Shown piece by piece: positions 1-63,445 of a stretch of 64,000 nucleotides of DNA. The translations under genes and the position numbers were made by a program. Position 1 is the first letter of the stretch. Every line of letters starts with the position of its first letter. The stretch is from Mobula hypostoma (taxonomy: Eukaryota). The DNA lies in the NCBI RefSeq assembly GCF_963921235.1, contig NC_086108.1:71798001-71862000 (forward strand), given 5' to 3'. The notes under the pieces are model-generated. The model made no database searches. It saw only the letters and a list, made by a program, of their open reading frames with translations, and had not been told where the DNA came from.

Positions 1-330
1 AATTCCACAGATTCACCACTCTCTGTGTGAAGAAGTTTTTCCTAATCTCGGTCCTAAAAGGCTTCCCCTTTATCCTTAACTGTGACCCCTCGTTCTGGAC
101 TTCTCCAACATCGGGAACAATCATCTTGCATCTAGCCTGTCCAATCCCTTTAGAATTTTATATGTTTCAATAAGATCCCCCATCAATCTTCTAAATTCCA
201 ACGAGTATAAGCCTAGTCGATCCAGTCTTTCATCATATGAAAGTCCTGCCATCCCAGGAATCAATCTGGTGAACCTTCTTTGTACTCCCTCTATGGCAAG
301 AATGTCTTTCCTCAGATTAAGGGACCAAAA
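1..330 (-). mobile_element. CR1-type LINE, 3' RT fragment running off the window edge
   Basis: Near-identical to the reverse complement of about 23150-23480 (FFTQRVVNLWN region). Confidence 0.9.
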
Positions 331-470
331 GAGTAAGCAGTTGACATTTTGGGCCGAGACTCTTCATCAGGATCTGACAAAGGGTCTTGACCCGAAACAT
401 CGACTGTTAACTCTTTTCTATTCTTGCTGCCTGGCCTGCTGAGCACCAGCAGCATCTTGTGTGTGTATTA
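331..470. mobile_element. Penelope-derived palindromic element with two inverted hammerhead-like motifs
   Basis: cagttgacattttgggccgagactcttcatcagga followed by tctgacaaagggtcttgacccgaaacatcgactg forms an inverted pair. The gctgcctggcctgctgag...gtgtgt arm is shared with 19580-19713 and 63217-63390. Confidence 0.75.
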
Positions 471-477
471 GCTTGTG

Positions 478-660
478 TGCAGTAACTGTTTTTGAGACTA
501 GTGGGTCTGGGGTGGATGCTGCATAGTCTCTTCCTTGATGGGAATGGGGCAAACTGTCCAAATGCAGAGTAGGTGGGAACCTTTATAATATTGCTGGTCT
601 TTCTCTGGCACCATTCTGTATATAGGTCCTTGAAGGCGGGTAGGTTAGTGCTGGTGATGA
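478..660 (-). mobile_element. Rex1/Babar-like LINE 3' fragment
   Basis: The minus frame reads DLYTEWCQRKTSNIIKVPT...PSRKRLCSIHPRPTSLKNSY, homologous to the Rex-type C-terminus at 3989-4369. Confidence 0.65.
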
Positions 661-1399: not shown

Positions 1400-1505
1400 T
1401 TTCTCCAGTGCTGCCTAAGAGTCTTGGTTTGAAACGTCAGCTGTACTTTTTTCCATAGATACTGCCCGTCCTGCTGATTTCTTCCAGTATTTTGTTTGTG
1501 TTGCC
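1400..1505 (+). repeat. Degenerate Penelope-derived arm with hammerhead remnant
   Basis: cagtgctgcctaagagtcttggtttgaaacgtcagctg...ccatagat...cctgctgatttcttccagtattttg. Confidence 0.6.
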
Positions 1506-17711: not shown

Positions 17712-17795
17712 CTCTAATACACAAATTCCTGCAGCAATCCCACCAACAATGTGTGCATTTTCTTTCAGAATGTCAAAGAGTTGTTGAAAACATCC
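17712..17795 (-). CDS. TSPAN1: Tetraspanin-1 coding exon 6 (GCFQQLFDILKENAHIVGGIAAGICVLE)
   Basis: Acceptor ttttcatcattgcag after an 83-nt intron, donor GAG|gtgagt, 84 nt. Contains the GC motif and the start of TM4. Confidence 0.96.
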
Positions 17796-17878
17796 CTGCA
17801 ATGATGAAAAGATTGTGATTTACAGCTACAGTGAAGCAATGCAGGTCAGAAAATGTCAGGAATAAAAAGCAGTCATAC

Positions 17879-18022
17879 CTGTATTCTGCTGTTCATTGCC
17901 ACCGTTTCAGTACAAACGGCTGCTGTTGTGTTGCAGCAGAACGATGGGAAGGTATCATTGTTCTTTCTGAAGTAATAGGAATCACTAAAATCTGTATAGT
18001 TGGTAAAGCCACAACACTTCAG
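17879..18022 (-). CDS. TSPAN1: Tetraspanin-1 coding exon 5 (LKCCGFTNYTDF...FPSFCCNTT...RIQ)
   Basis: Acceptor ccacatttgcag, donor CAG|gtatga, 144 nt. Contains the CCG and PxxCC motifs of EC2. Confidence 0.97.
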
Positions 18023-18645
18023 CTGCAAATGTGGAAAGAGGAGCATTAAACCAAATACTAGAGGTACATTATTCATATCAAATCTCTATACAGGTGCAGG
18101 AAATCTTAGGGGCACAAGTTTTGGAATTCAAAAGGTGGTTTGGGAGCCATTTTTGATGTTTTTCTAAACTGTTTGATTTTGGTTACCCGACAGTTGCAAG
18201 TCAATTCAAAGCCATAGCAAATGAACAAATAATTTGCATCAGGCCTTGGACATCCCTGCTTAATACCGAGTTACTTCAAATCTTTCAGTGTCATCTCTGG
18301 TGCACACTTGTTCTTCATGACACATCTCCATCTATTCAAGGATTATACAATACATCTAGGTTATAACACCATGGCGCTAATACTTACTTAATACTAAAAT
18401 TTGACCAAATTAGGAATATATAACAAGGTGCATCAGGAACTGAAGGATTCCTTGCAACTTTAGCTCCTGCCATCGTTGCAAGATAACTAATGTACATTGG
18501 AGATTTACCCAAGCACTTTCAGGCGTGCTGAAATATTTCCAAGGTAATCATTCTACAACTGTTAAGATCAATAACCATTCTATAGTATTTATTAGCAAGA
18601 CTTTCCTGTCTCAATTTGGTCATTTAACAAAAGTTAAATAATTAC

Positions 18646-18744
18646 TTCACTCATTGTAGTATTCCAGATTCCAGTCACATCTTTCTGCTTTCCATAGTCA
18701 TCCCTTAGTACTGGAGTTACCCAGGCACGGAGAAGACTCTCTGC
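18646..18744 (-). CDS. TSPAN1: Tetraspanin-1 coding exon 4 (AESLLRAWVTPVLRDDYGKQKDVTGIWNTTMSE)
   Basis: Acceptor tgtatttttgtag, donor GAA|gtaatt, 99 nt. The DYG...WNTTM pattern is typical of the TSPAN1 large extracellular loop (EC2). Confidence 0.95.
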
Positions 18745-19239
18745 CTACAAAAATACAAACAATTGTAGGATTAAATTTACTTTTCACTCAAAAGTGAATG
18801 AGACAATAATTGTATCAGGTAAGCATCCAAGTGCAGCAAGGAGCAAGACTTGGTGTGCACAATAATGAAAAACAAATCTGACAACCAGACTTCAACATTT
18901 GGGCTCAGGTTGACAATCATTTTGCTTCACAAAACCAAGCTCTAATAGGAGAGTCCACTCCTACAACTACATTCAAGAATGTTGTCATCAAGTACTTCGG
19001 GAACCTCCAGAAATTGAGCGAAGCAGAAGATGGCTTTGTGGCAAACAAATATCTCTTAAACTCTGAAAGCTTTATACCATTCACAGAGCATTTATCTGGT
19101 GACTACATCTGATACCTAGTCAGCACATGTAATGAATGATCAGTGAACTAGAACCACTTAAAGGCTATTGTTCTATTACTGCTTCCAGCTGAAAAGGGAA
19201 GTTGAGCTTGTGTATCAAATATTGCTGTTGTTCCTCACT

Positions 19240-19438
19240 GCACCTTGTGGTGCACCAGGCAGTAACCTTGTTGATTCTTTAGCATTTTTGTCTCTTTTTT
19301 TAAAAAAAACAAGACCAAATTGCTAGGTCAACACTCAACCCAGCACGGATGGAAAGCATGAAAGGAGCCGGCTGGATCTGAACCAGGACCACTTGCCTTG
19401 AAGTCCAGAGCAGATGTTACTAAACTACCAACCGACTG
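19240..19438 (-). mobile_element. tRNA-derived SINE (degenerate)
   Basis: Minus-strand head ...ctggacttcaaggcaagtggtcctggttcagatccagcc has a B-box-like GGTTCAGATCC and is homologous to the head at 34114-34190. Confidence 0.6.
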
Positions 19439-19577
19439 CATCAAATATTGCTACGCTGAAACTGGCCCTTCAGCAGTCTTGCGGGAATACGAATAACAAA
19501 GCTGCTGTCCTCTTTGTCACTACATCTCCATATGGGGTGATTGTGGGAGGAATAGAGATTAAATGTAACAAATATCT

Positions 19578-20280
19578 CAAACAACAGGAATTCTGCAGAT
19601 GCTGGAAATTCAAGCAACACACATAAAAGTTGCTGGTGAACGCAGCAGGCCAGGCAGCATCTCTAGGAAGAGGTGCAGTTGACATTTCAGGCCGAGACCC
19701 TTCGTCAGGACTAACTGAAGGAAGAGTGAGGAAGGGATTTGAAAGTTGGAGGGGGAGGGGTAGATCCAAAATGATAGGAGAAGACACGATGGGGAGGGAT
19801 GGAGCCAAGAGCTGGGCAGGTGATAGGCAAAAGGGATAAGAGAGGATCATGGGACAGGAGGTCCAGGAAGAAAGACAAGGAGGGTGGGGGGGGGCACCCA
19901 GAGGATGGGCAGGGGGTATATTCAGAGGGACAGAGGGAGAAAAAGGAGAGTGAGAGAAAGAATGTGTGTATAAAAATAAGTAACAGATGGGGTACGAGGA
20001 GGAAGTGGGACATTAGCGGAAGTTAGAGAAGTCGATGTTCATGCCATCAGGTTGGAGGCTACCCAGATGGAATACAAGGTGTTGTTCCTCCAACCTGAGT
20101 GTGGCTTCATCTTTACAGTAGAGGAGGCCGTGGATAGACATGTCAGAATGGGAATGGGATGTGGAATTAAAATGTGTGGCCACTGGGAGATCCTGCTTTC
20201 TCTGGTGACAGAGCATATGTTCAGCAAAACAGTCTCCCAGTCTGCTGTTCAGCAAAGCGGTCTCCCAGTTCTCTCCCAGT
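19578..20280 (-). mobile_element. 5'-truncated Penelope-like element: GIY-YIG endonuclease C-terminus, pyrimidine-rich 3'UTR and hammerhead-containing terminus
   Basis: ORF 20013..20309 reads RLGDCFAEH...PVATHFNSTSHS...RLEEQHLVFHLGSLQPDGMNIDF, the typical Penelope endonuclease end. The terminus carries CTGACGA...GAAA. Confidence 0.88.
19676..19713 (-). ncRNA. Minimal type I hammerhead ribozyme motif (Penelope-associated, CpG-decayed)
   Basis: Minus strand reads TAGTC CTGACGA AGGGTCTCGGCCT GAA ATGT C AACTG. The CUGANGA and GAAA core, stem II and the GUC site are present; stem I has one mismatch. Confidence 0.65.
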
Positions 20281-20410
20281 TCCATCACTTTCAATGTGAA
20301 AGCTAGCAAAACTTTGCCACGATACTAGCTGGAATAACTGAGGGCTATTAAATACAATATACTTGCGCCAGATGGCATTTTATAAATGGGAGACAAAAGC
20401 TTGTACTTAC

Positions 20411-20485
20411 GAAAGAAGAATACACCAGAGCCACGACAGCAGCAGCAATTTCAGCAATGAAGATTATAAGAACAATAGCGAAGAA
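20411..20485 (-). CDS. TSPAN1: Tetraspanin-1 coding exon 3 (FFAIVLIIFIAEIAAAVVALVYSSF, TM3)
   Basis: Acceptor ttttcatcttcctag, donor TTC|gtaagt, 75 nt. Contains the conserved TM3 glutamate (IFIAE). Confidence 0.95.
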
Positions 20486-20804
20486 CTAGGAAGATGAAAA
20501 CAAAATAATTGTTACCTGACTCTGACGAGAATGTTATTGATAAACTAGTTGCTGGAATATTTACATTTAAGTGGTGGCAGGTACTGTCAGAAGATGAAAA
20601 CCCTCATGTGCAAGTTTGCTAACTAATGTAGCAATTAGATATCACTCTTCATTAGTGGAGTGATAATGGAAGTCACAAGGCACCATGCTAATACAAAACA
20701 AAAGATCAGATTTTTATGTCAAGTAGCTCATTTAAAGCAGCGACCACATTGCTCAAATTAATGTTGTGTTGTTTAGTGAGAAGATCAGTCTGTCATATGT
20801 TGGA

Positions 20805-20860
20805 GCATGGGTTCCCAACCTTTTTTATGCCATGGAGCCTGACCATTAACTGAGGGGTCC
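20805..20860 (+). mobile_element. Truncated hAT-type MITE end
   Basis: gcatgggttcccaacctttttt-atgccatgga resembles the CAGGGGTTCCCAACC terminus of Charlie-type hATs. No right TIR is visible. Confidence 0.4.
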
Positions 20861-21344
20861 TCTAGCAGCTAGAGGGCTTGGTTGAGTGCCTGCAACTGCC
20901 AGCAATATTTAAAGAGATCTGAGAGAACACAGCCATCACAAAAGGCTTATGAGATAGCTTGCACCACAAGGCTGTACTTCTATTGCACACTGTGACTGAA
21001 AATAATGCAAAACCCCCTTTACTCAAAAAGTGAGGTCATGCCATTATGTAAATCTTTACGCAAATGGAATATTCCACCAGCGTTTGGAGCTTTTGTTGAC
21101 ATTCAATTGGATAGGATGTTGACATATAGCATGCAGTCTCTATTGTACAACTCTTCCAGGTTGCATCTAGTCCAAACCCAAGGGAATGGGTTCCGAGTTT
21201 ATGAAACCCAATTAACCTCCCAGTATCAGTCTTTCGACACACACACAAACCTTATCCAACACTAGTATCATAGATGTGGCAAACAAAATGCTGAAATAAC
21301 TTTAGGATTCCAAATATTTGGAGACAAGGCTGATGTTGAGTTAA

Positions 21345-21451
21345 CATGGGATTCTGCTGGAAATCTGGAGCAACACTCAAAATGCTGGAGGAACTCTACA
21401 GGTCTTGATGAAGGGTTTTGGCCTGAAATGTTGACTCTCCATAGATGCTGC
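21345..21451. repeat. Penelope-derived palindromic element, left part; the right part is at 23684-23715, split off by CR1
   Basis: aaaatgctggaggaactc...ggtcttgatgaagggttttggcctgaaatgttgact...atagatgctgc, resuming as atctgcgagttcctccagcatcttgtg after the CR1. Confidence 0.75.
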
Positions 21452-23683
21452 ATAGTTAATTCAGAAACAAAGGTTCTGAACTTAAAGAGGGGTAACTTTG
21501 AAGGTATGAGACGTGAATTAGCTAAGATAGACTGGCAAATGACACTTAAAGGATTGACGGTGGATATGCAATGGCAGGCATTTAAAGGTTGCATGGATGA
21601 ACTACAACAATTGTTCATCCCAGTTTGGCAAAAGAATAAATCAAGGAAGGTAGTGCACCCGTGGCTGACAAGAGAAATTAGGGATAGTATCAATTCCAAA
21701 GAAGTAGCATACAAATTAGCCAGAGAAAGTGGCTCACCTGAGGACTGGGAGAAATTCAGAGTTCAGCAGAGGAGGACAAAGGGCGAAGGGGAAAAAAATT
21801 ATGAGAGAAAACTGGCAGAGAACATAAAAACGGACTGTAAAAGCTTTTATAGATATGTAAAAAGGAAAAGACTGATAAAGACAAATGTAGGTCCCCTGCA
21901 GACAGAAACAGGTGAATTGATTATGGGGAGCAAGGACATGGCAGACCAATTGAATAATTACTTTGGTTCTGTCTTCACTAAGGAGGACATAAATAATCTT
22001 CCAGAAATGGTAAGGGACAGAGGGTCCAGTGAGATGGAAGAACTGAGTGAAATACATTTTAGTAGGGAAGTGGTGTTAGGTAAATTGAAGGGATTGAAGG
22101 CAGATAAATCCCCAGGGCCAGATGGTCTGCATCCCAGAGTGCTTAAGGAAGTAGCCCAAGAAATAGTGGATGCATTAGTGATAATTTTTCAAAACTCATT
22201 AGATTCTGGACTAGTTCCTGAGGATTGGAGGGTGGCTAATGTAACCCCACTTTTTAAAAAAGGAGGGAGAGAGAAACCGGGGAATTATAGACCGGTTAGC
22301 CTAACGTCGGTGGTGGGGAAACTGCTGGAGTCAGTTATCAAGGATGTGATAACAGCACATTTGGAAAGCAGTGAAATGATCGGACAAAGTCAGCATGGAT
22401 TTGTGAAAGGAAAATCATGTCTGACGAATCTCAGAATTTTTTGAGGGTGAGGATGTAACTAGTAGAGTGGATAGGGGAGAACCAGTGGATGTGGTATATT
22501 TGGATTTTCAAAAGCCTTTTGACAAGGTCCCACACAGGAGATTAGTGTGCAAACTTAAAGCACACGGTATTGGGGGTAAGGTATTGGTGTGGGTGGAGAA
22601 TTGGTTAGCAGACAGGAAGCAAAGAGTGGGAATAAACGGGACCTTTTCAGAATGGCAGGCGGTGACTAGTGGGGTACCGCAAGGCTCAGTGCTGGGACCC
22701 CAGTTGTTTACAATATATATTAATGACTTGGATGAGGGAATCAAATGCAGCATCTCCAAGTTTGCGGATGACACGAAGCTGGGTGGCAGTGTTAGCAGTG
22801 AGGAGGATGCTAAGAGGATGCAGGGTGACTTGGATAGGTTGGGTGAGTGGGCAAACTCATGGCAGATGCAATTTAATGTGGATAAATGTGAAGTTATCCA
22901 CTTTGGTGGCAAAAATAGGAAAACAGATTATTATCTGAATGGTGGCCGATTAGGAAAAGGGGAGGTGCAATGAGACCTGGGTGTCATTATACACCAGTCA
23001 TTGAAAGTGGGCATGCAGGTACAGCAGGCGGTGAAAAAGGCGAACGGTATGCTGGCATTTATAGCGAGAGGATTCGAGTACAGGAGCAGGGAGGTACTAC
23101 TGCAGTTGTACAAGGCCTTGGTGAGACCACACCTGGAGTATTGTGTGCAGTTTTGGTCCCCTAATCTGAGGAAAGACATCTTTGCCATAGAGGGAGTACA
23201 AAGAAGGTTCACCAGATTGATTCCTGGGATAGCAGGTCTTTCATATGAAGAAAGACTGGATGAACTGGGCTTGTACTTGTTGGAATTTAGAAGATTGAGG
23301 GGGGATCTGATTGAAACGTATAAGATCCTAAAGGGATTGGACAGGCTAGATGTGGGAAGATTGTTCCCGATGTTGGGGAGGTCCAGAACGAGGGGTCACA
23401 GTTTGAGGATAGAGGGGAAGCCTTTTAGGACCGAGATTAGGAAAAACTTCTTCACACAGAGAGTGGTGAATCTGTGGAATTCTCTGCCACAGCAAACTGT
23501 TGAGGCCAGTTCATTGGCTATGTTTAAGAGGGAGTTAGATATGGCCCTTGTGGCTACAGGGGTCAGGGGGTATGGAGGGAAGGCTGGGTTCTGAGTTGGA
23601 TGATCAGCCATGATCATAATGAATGGCGGTGCAGGCTCCATGGCCTACTCCTGCACCTATTTTCTATGTTTCTATGTTTCTAT
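21452..23683 (+). mobile_element. Young 5'-truncated CR1 LINE (about 2.2 kb) in a TSPAN1 intron, antisense to the gene
   Basis: ORFs 21428..22444, 22467..22973 and 23001..23594 give an almost continuous RT ([32 protein letters not shown]) with few lesions. Tail (TTTCTATG)3. Confidence 0.95.
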
Positions 23684-23837
23684 GATCTGCGAGTTCCTCC
23701 AGCATCTTGTGCGATGCAGAATTAAGTTGTTCAATTGTTCCTCATTTTCCACCACCCACACTTCCCCAGCTCAGCAAATGGGAAAAAAAAAATCCTTTAT
23801 TCATGGTCAGTATTTACTCCCCACAAATTATACCTAC

Positions 23838-24044
23838 CAGCATTAGCAGGCATTTACTTTCTTTCTGTGCTCCACAACATCCCAGGAATCCAAGGATAAC
23901 CAAGATAGCACCAATCACAATGCAGAAGTAGCCGATGTTGACAAACTGCATTGCTTGAGAAGATATAGGACCAATTACTTTTACAAAAGACGTTCCATCC
24001 ACACTAACCCATATTCCAACACCCAACAGGGCTCCTCCTGCAAG
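23838..24044 (-). CDS. TSPAN1: Tetraspanin-1 coding exon 2 ([17 protein letters not shown]...[18 protein letters not shown])
   Basis: Acceptor ttccttttcag, donor CTG|gtaggt, 207 nt, phase 0-0. Carries the tetraspanin motif [12 protein letters not shown]. Overlaps ORF 23814..24089. Confidence 0.97.
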
Positions 24045-24569
24045 CTGAAAAGGAAAAAGAAAACAGCAATTTCGCATAGTTTTCCCCACACTTAATTAAA
24101 TTGCATGCAATTTAACCTGACAAGTCAAATTTGCAAAGATGAAAGACACTTTATGAATTGTTACTAATTTAATAAGAGCAAAAATATAAATAGCGCCATT
24201 TTAATATAATAGGATTGACCTTGAATTCAGACAGAAACATCCTTTGTATTATTTGTCAAATATACATTAATCGTCAGTGCCTCTAATGCAGTCCCTATAG
24301 AACAAATGCATCAATTTTGATTTCGGGATCTGGGGAATTTCCTACCTGACTTGAAACAAGACAATGGGACTTAAACTTAAGCAAACAATAGAAATGCAAA
24401 TATATATTCAAATAGCTATAAACCAAACAATTTAGCAAAAACAAATGCATGCAAGGTGTTGAATGAGTCACAAGAACATTAGGGCATATGCAACGTAACA
24501 CACAATAGCTCATTGTGCTTTTAAAAAAAGTGGTGCTAAGGGAAGATATTGGTCATTAATAATCAAGAA

Positions 24570-27500
24570 TCTATTTACCCCCATGTTAAATATACCTAAT
24601 GACTAGCTCCATAATTATCTTATAGCAATGAATTCTATGGATTCACCACCCTCTGGCTAAAGAAATTCCTCTTCATCTTTGTTTTAAAGAGACATCCTTG
24701 TACTCTGAGGCCCACTGGTCCTAGATTCCTCTAATATAGGAAATATCTTCTCCACATCCATTCTATTGAGGCTTTTCAACATTCATTGGCTCCCCCCTCA
24801 TTTTTCTAAACTTTAGTGAGTACATCCCCAGAGCCATCAAACTCTCCTCATACATTAACCCTTTTACACCCAGGATCATTCTCATAAACCTCCTCTGGAC
24901 CCTTTGTTGCCAGCAGATTCTTTCCTTGATATGGGGCCCAGAAACTGTTCAGTACTCCAAATATGTCCTGACCAACACCTTATAAAGCCTAGCATTACAT
25001 CAAGATTTTTGTAATACATTCTAATTCTATTGAAATAATGTTAACATTGCATTTGCCTTCATTACTACCAACTTAACCTACAAGTTAACATTAAGGAATA
25101 CTGCAATAGGTCTCCCAAGTTCCTTTGCATCTCCAGTTTCTGAATTCACTCCTCATTTATCAAATAATCTCTGATTTCATTCAGTCTATTAAAGGGTATG
25201 ACCTTACACTTCCCTGAACTGTATTCCATTAGCTCTTTCTTTGCCTATTCTCCTGATCCCTCCAACTAATTCTACAGACTCCATTTCTTCAACACTACTT
25301 GCCCCTCCACCTATCTTTGCATCATCTACACTCCTCTACCACGAATTCTATCATTCAGATAATTAATATAAACATGAAAAATAATGGAACCAACACTGAC
25401 CCGTGCAGAACACTACTAATCACTGGTAGCCAACCAGTAATTCCACTCTTTTATTCCACTCTTTGGCTGACAAACAAATGGCAATCTTCTGTCCGTGCTA
25501 GTATCTTCTTTGTAAAACCATTATCTTATTTAGCAGCCTCGCGTGTGACACCTCGTTAAAGCCTGCCCGAAAATCCAAGTAAACAATATCCACTGACTCT
25601 CCTCTGTCTATTCTGCCTGTTATTTCTTAAGAATTCTAACAGATTTCTCAGGCAAGATTTTCGCTTAAGGAAGCCGTGTTGACTTCGACCCATTGTTATT
25701 GTTTGCCTGTAAATTCACTGAAAGCTGATCCATAGAAATAGACTCTAACACCTTCGCAACCACAGATGTCAGGTTAACTGGTTTATAATTTCCTGGCTTT
25801 GGCCCACCTCCCTTCTTAAAGAGTGGAATGACATTTGCGATCTTCCCATCACAGAGTCACAGGACACCACAGTACAGAAACAGGCCTTTCAGCTAATTTA
25901 GTCTGGCCTAAAGATGAACTGACCTAGTCCCTTTGACCTGCATGTACCCAGCCCACAGCCCTCTATAACCTGCTTACATTTACCCTATTTATACCCTTCA
26001 ATTTTGTATGCCTCTCTTTATTCCCTAGAGCGCAGGAGAGTGAAGTCCTAACCTAGTCAACCTTTCTCTATAACTCAGGTCTTCAATTGCTGGCAACATC
26101 CTTGTAAACTTTCTCTGCACTCTTATTAATTTCTTTCCTGTAGGTAGGTGACCAGAGCGGCACACAATATTCCAAATTAGGTCTCACCAACATTTTATAC
26201 AACTTCAACAAAACATTTCAATACACAATTCTTTGATTTATGAAGGTCAATATGCTTTTGTTTTTTAAAAAATGACCCTATCTACCTGTGACACCACTTT
26301 CAAGAAATTAAGGGTCTGCATTTCAAGATCCCAGTTTTACTGCTCTCTGCGGTGACCTACAACTCACCATCTAAGTCCTACCTGGTTTCTCCCCCCAAAG
26401 TCCAACACGTCACACTTGGCTTCATTAAATTCCACCTGCTATTTTGGTCTAGATCCTGCTGCAAGCTTTCCTTACTGTCCACTTCACCCATAATCTTGGG
26501 GTCATCTACAAATTTGCTGATCTAGTTTATTACATTAATTTATTTATTGAGATACAGTGCAGAACAGGCCCTTCAAGCTACACCACCCAGCAATCCCCCA
26601 ATTTAATCCAGACCTAATCATGGGACAATTCACAATGACCAATTAATCTATCAATCAGTATGACTTTAGACTGTGGGGGGAAACCCACGTGGCCACAGGG
26701 AGAACTTACAAACTCCTTGCAGGCAGTGATGAGATTATCATCCAGATTGTTGATACAAGTGGCAAATAACTAACTCAGCACTGATCCCTGTGGCACCACT
26801 AGTCATAGGCCTCCAGAGAGGCAACCATCTACCACCACTCTCTGGAGCCTCGTGATGCTAATGTCTAATCCAATTTACTACCTTATCCTGAATGCCAAGT
26901 AACTGAACTTCTTGACCAACCTCTCATGTGGGATCTTGTCAAAGGCCTGGCTATGGTCTACACTGCTTTGCCTTCAACTTTCCTAGTCAAAAGACCACAA
27001 GATCAGTTAGACACGACTTACCGCTCACAAAGCCATGTTGACTATCCCTAATTAGTTCTTGCCAGTCCAAATATTGTTATATTCAGTCCTTTAAAATACC
27101 TTCCAATAACTTACCTACTACAGATGTCACCCTGTTTTATAATCTCCCAGCTTATTTTTAAGAGCCTTTCTTGAACAATGGAACAACATTAGCTGTTCTC
27201 CAATCCTCTGGTACCTAACCCATTGCCAAGTTCAGAACTATTTAGAATCTAGTGATTCTTGAAAGAGCAACTCTCATGCCCCCACAACCTCCCCAGTTAC
27301 CTCCTTCACAATCCTGGGGTGTAGTTCATCTGGTCCTGGTGACTTACCCACCTTTAGACCTCTCAGCCTCCCAAGCACCTTCTCCTTAGTAATAGCAACT
27401 ACACTCACTTCTGCCCCAATTCTCTCGAATTGCTGGCATACTGATGCATAGTACTCATTCAGCCCATCCCACATTTCATATTTCCTCATCATCTCTCCAG

Positions 27501-28800
27501 CATCATTATCCAGAGGTCCAATATCCACTCTTGGTTCTCATATTTCATCTTTCCTCTCCTTACTGCTTAAATTGCCCTCTGTTGTTCCCCCCCCACCCCC
27601 CAAAAAAGTTTCCAAATCCTTTAATATCCCACTGTTTTTTGCTGTACTGTATGTTTTTTTGTTGGCTTTAATTTCCCTCGTCATCCATGGTTACCTCATC
27701 CTTCTTTTAGAATGCTTCTTCGGGATTAACCAATTCTGCGTCTTCCAAATTGTCCCCATAAATTCCAGTTACTGCTGCTCTACCATCATCCCTGCTAGTG
27801 TCCCCTTCCAATCATCAGCTCCTCACAGCTCTAGTTATCTTTGCTCACTGTAATGCATTATTGTATCTGATTTTAGCTTCTCTCCGATTTTAACTCCTAT
27901 TAGGAAGTTTTAACCCTTGCAGTATTTTAACTCTACCCACAAGGCTTCTACATTTTCTGATCCTATATCACTTCTTTTGAAAAAAATTGATTTAATTTAT
28001 TAAACCAATGAATCCACCTCACCCCCTTAGCCTACGTGCCTGTCCCTTTGATACAATGGGCATCCTTGGATGTTAAAGTCCCAGCTGTGATCTTCTTTCA
28101 GCCATAACTCTGATGCCTGTGATGTCATACCTGCCGATTTCTAACTGCATTACAAGATCACCTACCTTATTTTATGTACTGCCTGCATTCAAAAATTACA
28201 CCTTCAGCCCTGCATTTATCATCCTTTTCAATTATGTCTCCATGTTGCCTGGTTAAATTCTTATCCTTTTCTATTTTTTTTTTGTCTTTATTCTGGAGAT
28301 TTCCATAACCTCTTCTGCAACCTCCCTCCCCTTTACTTTATTCATAATTTTCCAAGCTGTTGAACCCCCCCCCCCCACTATTTAATGTAAGGCCCTATCC
28401 GTAGCCCTAGAAAACCAGGATCCTGGTATCAGCAGAGTTCAGGTGGAGCCTGTCTCATCTGTATAGCTCTCTCCTTCCCCAATACAGGTGCCAATGCCCC
28501 ATAAATTTAACTCTATTCTTATTAAGCCAATTTGCATGTTGTTCAGGTAACAATCTAGAGATCGTTACATATTTGGTCCTGTGTTTTACTTTAGTTCCTA
28601 GCTGCTCAAACTACCTCAGCAGAACATCTTTCCTTGCTCTTCCTATGCTGTTGGCACCCACATGGATCACAAAAACTGGATCTTTCCCCTCCACTCCAAA
28701 CTCCTTTGCAAGTGAGATATAATACTCCTAATCCTGGCAGCAGACAGCAAAATGGCCATTGGGATCCTTGTGACAGATGCATCAATTTATAGTCCCAATG
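24570..28800 (-). mobile_element. Decayed CR1 LINE(s) in the first coding intron of TSPAN1, with a nested CR1 (about 25850-27235) and a V-SINE-like piece (about 26535-26730)
   Basis: Reverse-strand CR1 3' end at about 24570-24700, KSPGPDELHPR at 27274..27528, APE remnants at about 27900-28200 and ORF1-like remnants at about 28400-28800. Confidence 0.8.
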
Positions 28801-29748
28801 CAAATTACATTTCTCTTCTCTTAACCCTTCCCCCCACCCCTCCCCACTGCATGGCTCCCTGAACTACAGTCTGGTTGTTCATCCTTCCGAGAGCCCATCA
28901 CACTCAGCCTCACAGGGAGCAACAATCTCAGACCTGCTGGGCAAGCTCAAGGGCGGAGGATCTTATAGCACTACCACTTAGGTTCCACTACCCGCCTCAC
29001 TCGCAGTCATACACGCTTGCCGCTCACCAAGACCTAAAAACTGAATCAATGCCAAACTCAGTAGAAAGTCCTGACAGGTCCCCTTGCTCTTATGGCTTAA
29101 TTTGGATGATTAAGACCATAGATATCCAATTTAAACCTCTCTGTTTCACCCTGACCTTAGATCCAAAACCCTCACTATTATTTTAGCTACTCTTAAGCAA
29201 ACACTTCTACCCTTCAACCTATTCATCTAGCACTGCTGTTCATGTTCTAATTTGAAAACCCTGATGACCATCATGTTTGATTGATACTAGTTCCTGACCA
29301 AGCAGTATTTGCATCCTAATTTGCACTTACTTTTTAGTTCATTGTACCATATCTACGATCTGCCATTTCTCTTCCCTCAAATGTATAAAAAACAAGGGCC
29401 ATGCTTTTTCTCTGAAATTCTTTCCATAATCTGTTTCCATGTTCTATGAGCTCATGTCATCTTTGATGCCTGGCTTTAAAAACAAATCTACTGTAAAGAT
29501 ACCTAGCATGACTTGCTTTTTAACATGATCATCAAAAATTGGTAATGAGTTGATATGTCTGGAGACATTCTGCTATATTAGGTTGCTACTAAAAGTTGCT
29601 AAAAATTTGTATACAAAATAGCCTCTTAGTTACATCATTACTAAAGAAAAATCTACAAAGCAGGGTTTCAAAATACCCAGGCTGAGACATTTACCAAGTG
29701 TCCATGTATATAATCACTGTATAGCAGCTACGGAACAAGCATACTCAC

Positions 29749-29805
29749 AAAGATGAAGAGGTTGAAGAGGATCATCATAACCTTCACAAATGTAAAGCAC
29801 CCCAT
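29749..29805 (-). CDS. TSPAN1: Tetraspanin-1 coding exon 1 (MGCFTFVKVMMILFNLFIF); the exon starts at 29818 with 13 nt of 5'UTR
   Basis: ATG at 29805-29803. Acceptor gctgttttgtag ends at 29819; donor TTT|gtgagt follows 29749. 57 nt. Closely matches the TSPAN1 N-terminus/TM1 (human MQCFSFIKTMMILFNLLIF, from recall). Confidence 0.95.
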
Positions 29806-56898: not shown

Positions 56899-58097
56899 GA
56901 GTGGTCCCCAACCACTGGGCTGCGAGGAATCAATATGATTTGGCGATATGAAACGATACGAGTCACCTGCACCTTTTCTCGTTCCCTGTCACGCACTGTT
57001 GAATTTTAACGCAGGTGAGGTCATCAGTGACCCGAGACGTACAAAGGAATGGGTCCGTGACCCGTTTGTGAATGTCCCTGGTGAATCATCCATGTCAGCA
57101 CGGAAAAAAAGATCAACTCTTCGAGCTTGCAAATGATGGCGGGCTGAAAAGTATGTTTGACATAACATCTCTGCCGGCATTCCGGATCAAAGTCAAGGCT
57201 GAATATCCTGAGATAGCCACGAAAGCACTGAAAACGTTGCTTCCGTTTCCAACATATTTCTGCGAAGTGGAGTTTTCTGCAATGAATGCAACGAAAACTA
57301 AATTGCGGAATAGACTGGACATAAGGAACCCCCTTCGAGTATCGCTGTCTCCCGTCACCCCTCGATAGGACCGTCTTGTTGCAGGAAAACAAGCCCAGGG
57401 CTCCCACTGATTCAGCGATATTGGTGTGTTGCAATGATTTTATATGTTCATACAAGGAAAATATGCACTGTGCGTTTAATATCCAAACGTTACTTAAAAT
57501 GTTATGATGCTATTGACTTATAAGTGACTTATAATTCAGTGGTCCCCAACTTCTGGGCCGTGAAGAATACAGCAGTGTTCGGAACGCACCCAATACATCT
57601 TTAAGAAAAAAGCCGAAGTAAGCAAGCTAATGAATTAGGTGCCGCCCGGCACGTAAATGTCAGCCCAGATCAGAGGCGATTGCCGATTGCGTCACCTCTG
57701 ATCTGAGCCGACATTTACATGCTGGGCGGCACCTAATCAATTAGCTTGTTTATTTTGGTTTTTTTCTTAAAGGTGTGCTGGGTGTATTCTGGCTACCGCT
57801 GTATTCTCCGCTGATTGGTATCGGTTCACTGCCCGGAGGTTGGGGACCATTGTTATAATTGACTTATCACTACATTCATGCGAGGAAAATATGCGCTGTG
57901 TGTTTAATATTAAATTGGTTAGATAAACCCTTTTAGAAACAAAATTGAGTGTATTAGCCACTTACAAGTGACTTATCAGCTATATTCTGGTCGCGTTTAA
58001 CACCCACCACCCCACCCCCCCTCCCCAGTCAGCTGGTCCACAAGAATATTGTCAATATTAAACGGGTCCGCGGTGCAAAAAATGTTGGGGACCTCTG
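56899..58097 (+). mobile_element. hAT Charlie/Buster-type deletion derivative with a transposase C-terminal remnant
   Basis: Ends gAGTGGTCCCCAACC and GTTGGGGACCTCTG. 57020-57410 encodes WVRDPF...EYPEIATKALKTLLPFPTYFCEVEFS...KTKLRNRLD...KQAQGSH* (hAT dimerisation region) with a frameshift and a stop. Confidence 0.88.
57537..57852. mobile_element. 316-bp palindromic hAT MITE with an 8-bp TSD
   Basis: TIRs CAGTGGTCCCCAAC and GTTGGGGACCATTG. TSD TTATAATT at 57529-57536 and 57853-57860. A long internal inverted repeat is centred near 57685. Confidence 0.92.
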
Positions 58098-60290: not shown

Positions 60291-60344
60291 TTCCTTCCAC
60301 ATAACCTTTAAGGATCCCCCTGTCACTCTGACAGTAAGGACCCA

Positions 60345-60490
60345 ACAGAGGGTCCTGACGATGGGGCTCAGCTTAAAATTTTGGCTGATTATTCCTCTCC
60401 ATAGTTGTTGCCTGACCTGCTGAGGTGCTCTAGCATTTTGTGTGTGTTCCTCTGGATTTCCAGCATCTGCAGAATCTCTTGTGTTTCTTT
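60345..60490 (+). repeat. Penelope-derived terminal arm with degenerate hammerhead motif
   Basis: gggtcctgacgatggggctcagcttaaaattttggctg...gcctgacctgctgaggtgctctagcattttgtgtgtg...ttccagcatctgcagaatctcttgtg. Confidence 0.7.
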
Positions 60491-61029
60491 TCCAACAGAG
60501 GTAAGTGCGCAATGGGATTCAAGCAGAAGGAGTGACACCAGGAGTTCTCAACATTAATTCCAAGTCCCAAGAATTTGACCAGCAGCAGTTCAGACCAGTG
60601 GAGAGAGGCTCCTGCAGATTACCACTTCTCACTTACTACCAGCTGCTGAGTCAGTGCTCTTCTATATTTTACACCATTTGGTTTGAACTTCCCAAAACCA
60701 CAGAATGTGATTTGCATCAGCATTCAGTGTTCATCACCAAGAGTGGATTGGCATCTTTGCAATAGACTGAGCAGGTCAAGTGTGGAAAGGTGAAGCTACC
60801 AGACAGGGTCGGCACCATACAGATGGTATTTGCTGTTAACTCGGCTTTAATTGACAAGACATTCTTGTTCCATCTTGTAGTTAATTTTGCCTTTTTTTTT
60901 ATCTTGTCATTAGAACAGATCTCTAACAAATAACAGATTAAATTGAACATTTTGGTATTTAGTTTCTTAAACTGCAAGCAGAAGAAGGGATTACTGTATG
61001 TCTGAGTTTATGACCAAAAGTTTATCTAC

Positions 61030-63445
61030 CACAGGAGATTTCAGCCATCATCTTGGTGTACATCCCACCTCAGGCTGTAGATGAACTGAGCAACATAATC
61101 AACAGGCAGGAAATAGTGCAGCCTGGTGTCTTCCCGATCATTTTGAGGGATTTTAACCAGGGCAGCTTGAGAAAGCCTCTAAATAATTATTCCCAGCAAG
61201 TCACTTGTGGACCAGATGAACCAACACACTGGGTCACAGTTACACCACAATCAAGAGTGCTTACCGTGCCGTCCCATGCCCACACTTTGGAAAGTCTGAT
61301 CACCCGGCTGTACTTCTACTCCCTGGGTATAGGCAGAGAGTGAAGACTGCAGCACCAGTAGTGAGGATCAAGAAGGTATGGACAAGGGAGGCACAGGAGT
61401 GCTTACAGAACTATTTTGAATTGGTGGACTGGACTGTATTCGAGGATTTATTTTTGAGTCTGAATGAGCTGTCACTGACTTCATTAAAAACTATGTGGAT
61501 GAGTGTATGCCTTTGGGAACATACTGTACGTACCCAAGTCAAAAGCTGTGGACAAACCACAAGGTTCATAGTCTGCTGATGACTCGATCTGTGACTTTCC
61601 AGTCCAGTGACTCAGCAATGTTCAAGAAAACCAGGTACAACTTACGGTGGTCTATCTCAAGAGCCAAGGAACAATTCCGAACAAGGTTGGGGCAGAATCG
61701 GATGCACGTCAATGCTGGCAGGATTTGCAGGCCGTTACTTCCTTCAGAATGAAACCTAACATCATGAATGGCTGTGATGCTGCACTCCCAGATGAGCTCA
61801 ACACCTTTTAGGCACACTTTGAAAGGGAGAATGAAACTATGAGGATCTGGTGACCCTGGATCTCTGCCTCAGAGGCTGAAGTCAGGCTGTCTTTCAGGAG
61901 CAAACAACAGGAATTTCTTTCAGGAGGATGAACCCCTGTAAGGTGACCGGCCTTGATGGAGTACCTGGTAGAGCTCTGAAAACCTGTGCCAACCAACTGG
62001 TGGATGTGTTGAAAGACATTTTTAATCTGTTATTGTTACAGTCAGAAGTTCCCACCTGCTCCAAAAGGGCAACGATTATGCCAGTACCCAAAAAGAGCAG
62101 GGTGAGCTGTCTTAACGACTATCATCCTGTAGCACTCACATTTATGGTGATTAAGTGCTTTGAAAGAGAGAGAGAGAGGCTGGTTATGGCTAGAATTAAC
62201 TCCTGTCTCAGCATGGACTGGAAGCACTACAATTTGCCTATCACCACAATAGGTCTATGGCAGATGCAATCTTATTGACTACAGCTCAGCGCTTAACAAA
62301 AGTATTCCTACAGTTCAGATCAAAGAGATCCAAAACCTGGGCCTCAGTACTGCCCTCTGCAACTGGATCTTCAGCTTCCTAACCAGAGGACCACAATGGG
62401 TGGATTGGAAATAACATCTCCACTTCGCTGAGAATCAACACTGGTGCACCTCAGGGATATGTGCTCAGCCCACTGCTCTACTCTACACTCATAACTGCGT
62501 AGCTAGGCACAGCACAAATGCCATCTATAATTAGCCGATGACACAATTATTGTTGGCAGAATTTCAGATGGTGACGAGTGGAAGTGCAGGAACCAGATTT
62601 ATCAGTTGGTTGAGTGGTGTCACAACTTTGCTTTCAACATCAATAAGACCAATGAACTGATTGTGGACTTCAGAAAGTGTCAGACGAGGGAACACACACC
62701 CGTCCTCATAGAGGGATCAGAAGTGGAAAGAGTGAGCAATTTCAAGTTCCTGAGTGTCAGTTTCTCTGAGGATCTATCCTGGGCCCAACATGTCAATGCA
62801 CCTACAAAGGAAACACGACAGTGGCTGTATTTCATTAGGAATTTGATGAGACTTGGTATCACCAAAGACACTGGCAGATTTCTACAGATGTACTGTGGAG
62901 CGTACTCTAACTGGTTGCATCACCGTCTGATATGAAGGGGGCGGTATTGCACAGGGTTGAAATAAGCTGCAGAGAGTTATAAACCTGGTCAGCTCCTTCA
63001 TGGGCACTAGCCTTCATAGTATCCAGGACATCTTCAAGCAGCGATGCCTCAGAAAGGCAGCATCCATCATTGAGGACCCCCATCCCCTCTTCTCATTGCT
63101 ACCATTAGGAAGGAGGTATAGAAGCTTGAAGGCACATACTCAATAATTCAGTAACAGCTTCTTCCCCTCTGCCATCTAATTTTTGAATGGAGATTGAATG
63201 CAAGAACACTACCTCAGTAACAAGAGAAAATCTGCAGATGCTAGAAATCAAAGCAATGCACACAAAATGCTGGGGGAGCTCAGCAGACCAGGCAGCATCT
63301 TTGGAAAAAGGAAAAAAAGACACTTGACTGTTTACTCTTTTCCATAGATGCTGCCTGGCCTGCTGAGTTCCTCCAGCATTTTGTGTGTAGCACTACCTCA
63401 CCACCGTTTATTTATTTTTGTGCTACCTATTTAATTTAACTATAT
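61030..63445 (+). mobile_element. Decayed Rex1/Babar-like LINE (APE to RT to 3'UTR)
   Basis: VYIPPQA..DFNQ (61053), LKTCANQL...PVPKK..CLNDYHPVALT (61928..62278) and NINKTNELIVDFRK (62606..62935). Confidence 0.88.
63217..63390. mobile_element. Penelope-derived palindromic element with a 10-bp TSD and no central hammerhead pair
   Basis: Inverted arms cacacaaaatgctgggggagctcagcagaccaggcagcatctttggaaaa and ttttccatagatgctgcctggcctgctgagttcctccagcattttgtgtg. CACTACCTCA occurs at 63207-63216 and 63391-63400. Confidence 0.85.

What the first reader, a model, noticed from the sequence alone, without database searches (positions are those of the whole stretch)
338..406. Dispersed minimal hammerhead-ribozyme family, here as an inverted back-to-back pair inside a short palindromic element
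Seen in the sequence: six related motifs, at 338-372 (-), 372-406 (+), 1406-1443 (+), 19676-19713 (-), 21400-21436 (+) and 60350-60387 (+). Aligned by eye they give CAGTC-CTGA(T/C)GA-AGGGTCTCGGCCC-GAA-ACGT-C-GACTG. That reads as stem I (CAGUC/GACUG), the hammerhead core CUGANGA...GAAA, stem II (GGGUC/GGCCC), a self-complementary ACGU in place of stem III, and a GUC cleavage site. Many deviations are CpG-type transitions. Established: Penelope-like elements carry minimal type I hammerheads with a palindromic stem III that cleave as dimers. Inference: the abundant hairpin repeats here are non-coding Penelope satellites made of two inverted termini, so either strand's transcript carries one ribozyme plus its own antisense. 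That would be a retrozyme-like mobile RNA with built-in self-sequestration, which I cannot match to a described family from memory.
Basis: partly seen in the sequence, partly recalled or inferred. Interest (0 to 1): 0.78.

Follow-up and report, generated by a model that had tools for sequence, protein, structure and literature searches.

The report
Head-to-head Penelope retrotransposon stub
The back-to-back ribozyme motifs are two short, decayed end pieces of an abundant protein-coding Penelope-type jumping gene, likely joined afresh during one insertion rather than spreading as their own mobile RNA; the layout is already known, though where such copies stop likely marks the start of the element's RNA.

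Summary
All six motifs exist and match a minimal type I hammerhead consensus, but five have core mutations, including both arms at 338-406. The motif is the pLTR hammerhead of a coding Penelope-like element (RT, CX4CXXC linker, GIY-YIG), about 180 termini per Mb. The pair is one insertion: the left arm continues beyond a later LINE fragment to the tail end, the right arm is tail-less, and a 15/19 target duplication flanks both. It is not an amplified palindromic family: centres vary, 22 of 22 young pairs join one long and one short end, and in 9 of 22 each arm holds sequence the other lacks. Two-ended priming on an uncleaved RNA is the likely cause. 5' ends pile up at the first base of stem I, not at the cleavage site; a transcript start there is likely but unshown. 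Hammerheads in pLTRs, inverted copies, one-sided tail and TSD are published. The pairing and stop statistics were not in the papers searched, but this scan has already reported them on this genome and others.

The parts
1..330 (-). 3' fragment of a LINE (CR1-like by its octamer tail; label recalled) inserted into the left arm; it continues to about window -210
   Evidence: 78-330 is 91% complementary to 23151-23403; the rest of the left arm, with the long tail, lies beyond it at L031:9701-9790
327..371 (-). Inner part of the left (long, tailed) arm: decayed hammerhead 338-372 with G12>A, plus 11 nt
372..469 (+). Right (short, tail-less) arm: decayed hammerhead 372-406 with G8>A, then the pLTR hairpin region to the +97-type end
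   Evidence: (E 3e-25)
470..488 (+). Right copy of a decayed target-site duplication; left copy at L031:9682-9700, 15 of 19 identical
   Evidence: compared by eye
1407..1504 (+). Old single terminus with its pyrimidine-rich upstream sequence; core decayed
19580..20274 (-). Young 5'-truncated copy: end of the GIY-YIG ORF, 3' UTR, near-intact hammerhead (19676-19713), long tail; in a tetraspanin intron
   Evidence: (E 3e-170 to a coding copy)
21345..21452 (.). Degenerate head-to-head pair with internal deletions; hammerhead remnant 21400-21436 on +
60352..60487 (+). Single long stub that starts at the 5' edge of the hammerhead; 10-bp exact target duplication at 60342-60351 and 60492-60501
63220..63389 (.). 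Head-to-head pair (long left arm, short right arm) whose joint falls 3' of the ribozyme, so it has no hammerhead; 10-bp exact target duplication at 63207-63216 and 63391-63400

Best explanation
The pair at 338-406 is the centre of one decayed insertion made of two head-to-head end pieces of a protein-coding Penelope-like element, likely produced when both nicked target strands primed reverse transcription on an uncleaved RNA and the two cDNA ends were joined. Shown: the element unit is hammerhead, about 135 nt of leader, ORF, 3' UTR; copies end at +97 or +133 counted from the G of the GUC in stem I; pairs have one end of each kind and one target duplication round both; 5' ends peak at -1. Inferred: one strand primes at +133 and the other at +97; both copy the same RNA; many templates begin at -1 (likely a transcription start), so both cDNAs run off at the ribozyme's 5' edge and are joined by 1-8 nt microhomology or short templated patches. 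The hammerhead is conserved in source elements, is predicted to need a dimer or protein to cut, and decays as a passenger in genomic stubs.
For: Coding parent: RT motifs, CX4CXXC linker and C-terminal GIY-YIG directly upstream of the same terminus; L235 runs pLTR, hammerhead, tail, open ORF. Orientation: 35 head-to-head neighbours within 200 nt against 3, 4 and 3 for the other orientations. 3' ends of 80 young copies: 32 at +86..105, 41 at +121..140, 1 between, 6 shorter. Long+short: 16 of 16 adjacent young pairs and 6 of 6 more (by eye); all subfamilies, 28 of 34 pairs with one tail, 0 with two, 6 with none detected. Target duplication of 11-16 nt in 13 of 16 pairs; longest match 9 in 240 mismatched controls. 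In 9 of 22 pairs the short arm reaches 10-1364 nt further 5' than the long arm, so neither arm is a copy of the other. Arm lengths are coupled: 17 both short, 9 both long, 0 mixed (Fisher p 3e-7). Stops: 21 of 58 copies at risk end in -5..+6 (0.030 per nt; other bins 0.0005-0.009); genome-wide probe counts fall 87,442, 75,352, 60,057, 55,580 from +9 to -15; 4,585 copies break at -1, 889 at -5. In vitro a PLE protein nicks and extends both strands, starts at two internal sites and uses uncleaved RNA (PMC11167929).
Against: PMC11167929 saw no difference in start site between top and bottom strand. Mixed pairs exist: 1 of about 52 pairs, 4 in the 100 rows, several. The -13 cut-off for coupling was set after seeing the data and 4 of the 26 pairs were assigned by eye. 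No cap-derived G: 8 of 35 single stubs have G before the start, about 10 expected (by eye). Some arms reach -12 to -16 while the partner starts at -1, so the template edge is not absolute. Probe counts are blurred by 7-11% point mutation per probe. No RNA end could be read. The duplication round the window's own copy is only 15/19.
Confidence: 0.8

Rival explanations
1. Same insertion route, but the pile-up at -1 comes from a barrier to reverse transcription at the ribozyme's 5' edge (stem I snap-back of the cDNA, bound protein or a splice-site complex), not from an RNA end.
For: No cap-G excess. A branch-like motif, pyrimidine tract and YAG lie just 5' of the core in the subfamily consensuses, as the D. 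virilis intron ends at helix I (PMC4209133). Stem I pairs at probability 0.55-0.98.
Against: A per-enzyme barrier would give many mixed pairs; 0 of 26 and 1 of about 52 were seen. Stop rates at the 3' side of the helices are at background. None of 50 copies starting at -6..+8 carries an upstream exon.
Confidence: 0.3
2. The inverted pair arises by self-priming or fold-back of one cDNA, possibly from an antisense template (the model of PMC3846280).
For: Some centres are short perfect palindromes or carry patches templated from the other arm.
Against: In 9 of 22 pairs each arm has sequence the other lacks; tail-less ends also occur alone (20 of 45 single copies), so +97 is a priming site in its own right.
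Confidence: 0.08
3. The palindromes are a non-autonomous, retrozyme-like family that replicates as a unit with a self-masked ribozyme on each strand.
For: Pairs are frequent (70 of 277 termini). A few joints recur: one joint in 8 of 100 rows, others 2-5 times in the first 50 places. The hairpin is stable.
Against: Recurring joints sit at 1-3 nt microhomologies and carry different subfamily bases in their arms. 23 spacings in 34 pairs. Many joints delete one or both ribozymes (63220-63389). No tandem arrays: 7 same-strand neighbours against 35 inverted. Old copies decay neutrally in the core: 0.099 against 0.117 downstream; 2 of 106 remain complete.
Confidence: 0.05

Closest known systems
Minimal hammerheads (min-HHR) in pLTRs of metazoan PLEs, incl. 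fish Xena/Poseidon/Neptune (Cervera and de la Pena 2014, PMC4209133)
   Same: Type I topology, bulged base after A9, G10.1-C11.1, palindromic 15.2/16.2 in place of helix III; most copies single and truncated; pairs on opposite strands 100-700 bp apart were noted there.
   Different: Here pairs often abut (0-30 nt) and the youngest subfamily has G10.1.U11.1; cleavage untested.
Insertion units of endonuclease-positive PLEs with inverted 5'-truncated copy, one-sided 30-40 bp tail and TSD (PMC8557442, PMC3846280, PMC2377424)
   Same: Head-to-head layout, tail on one end only (36 nt here), target duplication round the whole unit, partial tandems.
   Different: Both arms are often stubs with no ORF. 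The strict long+short rule, coupled arm lengths and the stop at -1 were not found in the passages read.
Anolis Poseidon element PAc (PMC11167929)
   Same: Two internal RT start sites bounding the tail; both target strands extended; uncleaved RNA is the template; same core and ACGU/GUC end in the printed template.
   Different: Different clade (linker absent in Penelope/Poseidon per PMC8557442); ORF starts inside the PAc hammerhead but about 170 nt after it here (first ATG).
Animal non-LTR retrozymes (bioRxiv 10.64898/2026.07.22.740005)
   Same: PLE-derived, non-coding, type I hammerhead.
   Different: Retrozymes are head-to-tail tandem repeats with a complete ribozyme in each unit; these are head-to-head, variable and mostly broken.

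Membership tests
Endonuclease-positive Penelope-like element | Single ORF with RT and C-terminal GIY-YIG | tested here: met
   Pfam GIY-YIG 20.4 bits, below the 22.6 cut-off, on L131; relatives reach RVT_1 or GIY-YIG cut-offs
Endonuclease-positive Penelope-like element | Partial tandem forming a pLTR that holds the hammerhead | tested here: met
   L235, L085, L170 run 3' UTR, hammerhead, tail, ORF
Endonuclease-positive Penelope-like element | Inverted 5'-truncated copy, one-sided tail, TSD | tested here: met
Neptune clade | CX2-5CXXC linker between RT and endonuclease (shared with Nematis) | tested here: met
   CKRNKCYTC; criterion from PMC8557442
Neptune clade | Placement in an RT tree with named references | not tested
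   no named clade references were fetched; Neptune against Nematis is left open
Minimal type I hammerhead | CUGANGA, GAAA, NUH, stems I and II, palindromic stem III in the family consensus | tested here: met
   29 of 57 young copies complete, 2 of 106 old
Minimal type I hammerhead | Intact core in the two arms at 338-406 | tested here: not met
   G12>A on minus, G8>A on plus
Minimal type I hammerhead | Compensatory covariation of stems | tested here: inconclusive
   motif 84-95% identical between subfamilies against 19-63% upstream, but only one-sided stem changes
Minimal type I hammerhead | Self-cleavage after GUC | not testable with these tools
   no pile-up of single stubs at the cut site
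Non-LTR retrozyme | Head-to-tail tandem units, each with a complete hammerhead | tested here: not met
   35 inverted against 7 same-strand neighbours; a few tandem duplications only
Non-LTR retrozyme | Abundant circular or unit-length RNA | not testable with these tools
   only assembled contigs were available

The most novel reading that the evidence does not exclude
The genome's thousands of short palindromes record the missing steps of Penelope integration: a protein dimer primes one RNA twice, at +133 from one target strand and at +97 from the other, and a short transcript that starts exactly at the hammerhead's first base supplies the template, so the ribozyme caps the RNA's 5' end and stays uncut during copying.
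Probability: 0.45. Interest if true: 0.55.

Novelty: new member of a known kind. Interest (0 to 1): 0.3.

Why it matters
The locus itself is a dead insertion of a published layout. The family statistics matter modestly: how PLEs make inverted ends and what their hammerhead does are open questions (PMC11167929, PMC8557442), and the long+short rule, the coupled arm lengths and the stop at -1 give base-precise predictions for an in vitro assay that already exists. They also favour two-ended priming over the published self-priming idea.

Tried and rejected
Rfam: 11 matches at E<=10, none a hammerhead, none at gathering score. Spliced templates: 0 of 50 copies starting at -6..+8 have upstream PLE exon sequence; two have local tandem duplications. 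Cap-derived G: not enriched (8 of 35; about 10 of 34; by eye). Stubs at the cleavage site: 1,103 matches at +31, but about 64 of 100 listed are point mutants, about 32 are joints to an inverted arm and about 2 are single stubs, no more than at +34 (221 matches, about 14 of 100 single) (by eye). Expression: no RNA holder listed; four runs laid were contigs, which cannot show start, strand or level, and showed no joint at the candidate acceptor sites among those listed. Monomer fold: z -1.0, and the lowest-energy fold pairs the core with the cleavage triplet; not evidence of function. The exact protein is not in the cluster collection. A second set of anchor-centred loci could not be obtained, so that sample is 20 loci. 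Paper searches with no relevant hit: (and 45, 59 gave only papers cited here or general ones); supplements were not read and subscription papers (Arkhipova 2006; Evgen'ev and Arkhipova 2005; Lunse 2016) were not seen, and may describe more of this.

Full report
Observation. The six motifs are at the stated places. A profile built from them finds ten hits in the window, and 277 strong hits in 152 ten-kb stretches taken at round-number positions on large contigs (1.52 Mb), with none in the reversed control: about 180 per Mb, roughly 600,000 termini by extrapolation. Five of the six window copies carry core changes, including both arms at 338-406. Positions below count from the G of the GUC in the 5' strand of stem I as 0; the cut site is after +30.

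What it belongs to. The copy at 19676 extends to 20274 and holds the end of a GIY-YIG ORF. Its genomic sisters, 96-100% identical over the terminus, extend up to 2.3 kb through RT, a CX4CXXC linker and the endonuclease. L235 shows the partial tandem: 3' UTR, hammerhead, leader, then an open frame into RT. The nearest named proteins come from rays and sharks. This is an endonuclease-positive Penelope-like element with a Neptune/Nematis-type linker (PMC8557442, passages); I built no tree. At least four subfamilies share the hammerhead at 84-95% while their upstream 27 nt match at 19-63%, so source elements keep the motif. Genomic copies do not: in old copies non-CpG core positions differ at 0.099 against 0.117 downstream, and 2 of 106 are complete, against 29 of 57 young copies.

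The locus. The left arm is cut at 327 by a LINE fragment; its remainder, with the long tail, lies in the neighbouring stretch L031:9701-9790. The right arm ends near 469 without the tail. A 19-nt flank repeat with 15 identities brackets the whole. Two other window copies show the same rules: 63220-63389 is a long+short pair with a 10-bp duplication and no ribozyme, and 60352-60487 is a single long stub starting at the ribozyme edge with a 10-bp duplication. A tetraspanin gene lies on the minus strand; the pair is about 17 kb past the last exon I found.

Family or by-product. Head-to-head neighbours within 200 nt outnumber the other orientations 35 to 3, 4 and 3, and exact core pairs with 0-30 nt spacers occur 2,315 times. 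But 34 close pairs show 23 spacings from -94 to +14, and young arms run from 40 nt to 1.5 kb. Some joints recur (one in 8 of 100 rows), at short microhomologies and with differing subfamily bases, which fits repeated formation. Of 82 young copies (88% identity or more), 80 have a terminal 3' end: 32 at +86..105, 41 at +121..140, 1 between and 6 shorter. All 16 adjacent young pairs join one long and one short end (one has a tandem duplication in its long arm), and 13 of 16 have an 11-16 nt exact target duplication against at most 9 nt in 240 controls. Six more pairs in 20 anchor-centred loci obey the rule. Across all subfamilies 28 of 34 pairs have one tail, none two, six none detected. In 9 of 22 pairs the short arm reaches at least 10 nt further 5' than the long arm, so each arm holds sequence the other lacks and simple fold-back cannot make them.

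Where copies stop. Of 77 young copies with a usable 5' end (3 cut by stretch edges and 2 artefacts dropped), 21 of 58 at risk stop in -5..+6, 0.030 per nt, against 0.009 at +7..18 and 0.0005-0.004 elsewhere. Genome-wide probe counts with one anchor fall from 87,442 (+9) to 75,352 (0), 60,057 (-6) and 55,580 (-15); 7-11 of 100 spanning copies miss each probe by mutation (listing), so the steepest fall, 0 to -6, is about a fifth. Breaks at -1 number 4,585 and at -5 889. About 35 of 100 listed at -1 are single stubs, against about 2 of 100 of the 1,103 matches at the cut site (by eye), so templates were mostly uncleaved. Arm lengths are coupled: 17 pairs both at -13 or shorter, 9 both longer, none mixed (cut-off post hoc), and 1 of about 52 pairs with an arm at -1 has a far-upstream partner. 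Mixed pairs do occur.

Mechanism. Shown: two 3' ends, one of each per pair, one target duplication, heterogeneous joints, a stop at -1. From the literature: a PLE protein extends both target strands, starts at two internal sites that bound the tail, and uses uncleaved RNA, with no strand difference in start site seen (PMC11167929, passages and second part of main text). Inferred: both nicks prime, probably on one RNA, and the cDNA ends are joined by microhomology. Inferred with less support (about even): -1 and -5 are transcript starts; both fit a pyrimidine-A initiator pattern (recalled consensus), but no cap-derived G is seen, no RNA ends could be read, and the same pyrimidine-AG also resembles a splice acceptor, although 0 of 50 copies show splicing. 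A transcript across the pair would be a hairpin, but with both cores broken this has no ribozyme consequence at this locus.

Comparison with what is known. PMC4209133 (parts 1-2 of 4 of the text) describes minimal hammerheads in fish PLE pLTRs and pairs on opposite strands. PMC8557442, PMC3846280 and PMC2377424 (passages) describe the inverted 5'-truncated copy, the one-sided tail and the TSD; PMC3846280 proposes self-priming. The retrozyme preprint 10.64898/2026.07.22.740005 (parts 1-2 of 5) defines retrozymes as tandem units, a test this fails. PMC6765202 and PMC6431247 (passages) added nothing beyond these. The long+short rule and the stop at -1 were not found in searches. Earlier notes of this scan report the same reading on this genome and on others; I had reached it before opening them (note) and do not count them as support.

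Verdict. Real motif, correct Penelope link, no new mobile RNA. New member of a known kind; interest 0.3, carried by the mechanistic statistics rather than the locus.

Noticed in passing
window 57584-57790: Near-perfect hairpin of about 210 bp, TA-flanked, not hit by the Penelope terminus profile; resembles a Tc1/mariner-type MITE (recalled, untested). Rfam's weak mir-2329 match (40.6 bits, cut-off 90) is to this hairpin.
   Followed up: no
window 17795-29805 (minus): Exons of a tetraspanin gene (Pfam PF00335 on one exon); the copies at 19676 and 21400 lie in its introns.
   Followed up: partly
listings: Where a single stub has G just before its first A, the base before is nearly always T (17 of 18, by eye, post hoc), although G itself is not enriched. 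Unexplained.
   Followed up: no
L235 reverse strand 165-188; subfamily consensuses: Branch-like motif, pyrimidine tract and YAG directly 5' of the hammerhead, and a second tract with AG-ATG 48 nt later; possible conserved 5' UTR intron as in D. virilis Penelope. No spliced copy in 50.
   Followed up: partly
young subfamily consensus: Youngest copies have G10.1.U11.1 in place of the usual G-C, and the predicted monomer fold pairs G5-A6-C7-G8 with the cleavage triplet, a possible inactive fold.
   Followed up: partly
L216, L217, L218 (G000:C45 near 70.9 Mb): Three neighbouring truncated PLE copies each sit beside a long array of an AC-rich unit of about 25-28 nt; two are 99% identical, suggesting a segmental duplication.
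   Followed up: no
subfamily 3 consensus; window 1406: One old subfamily has C in place of A6 in the first core box.
   Followed up: no
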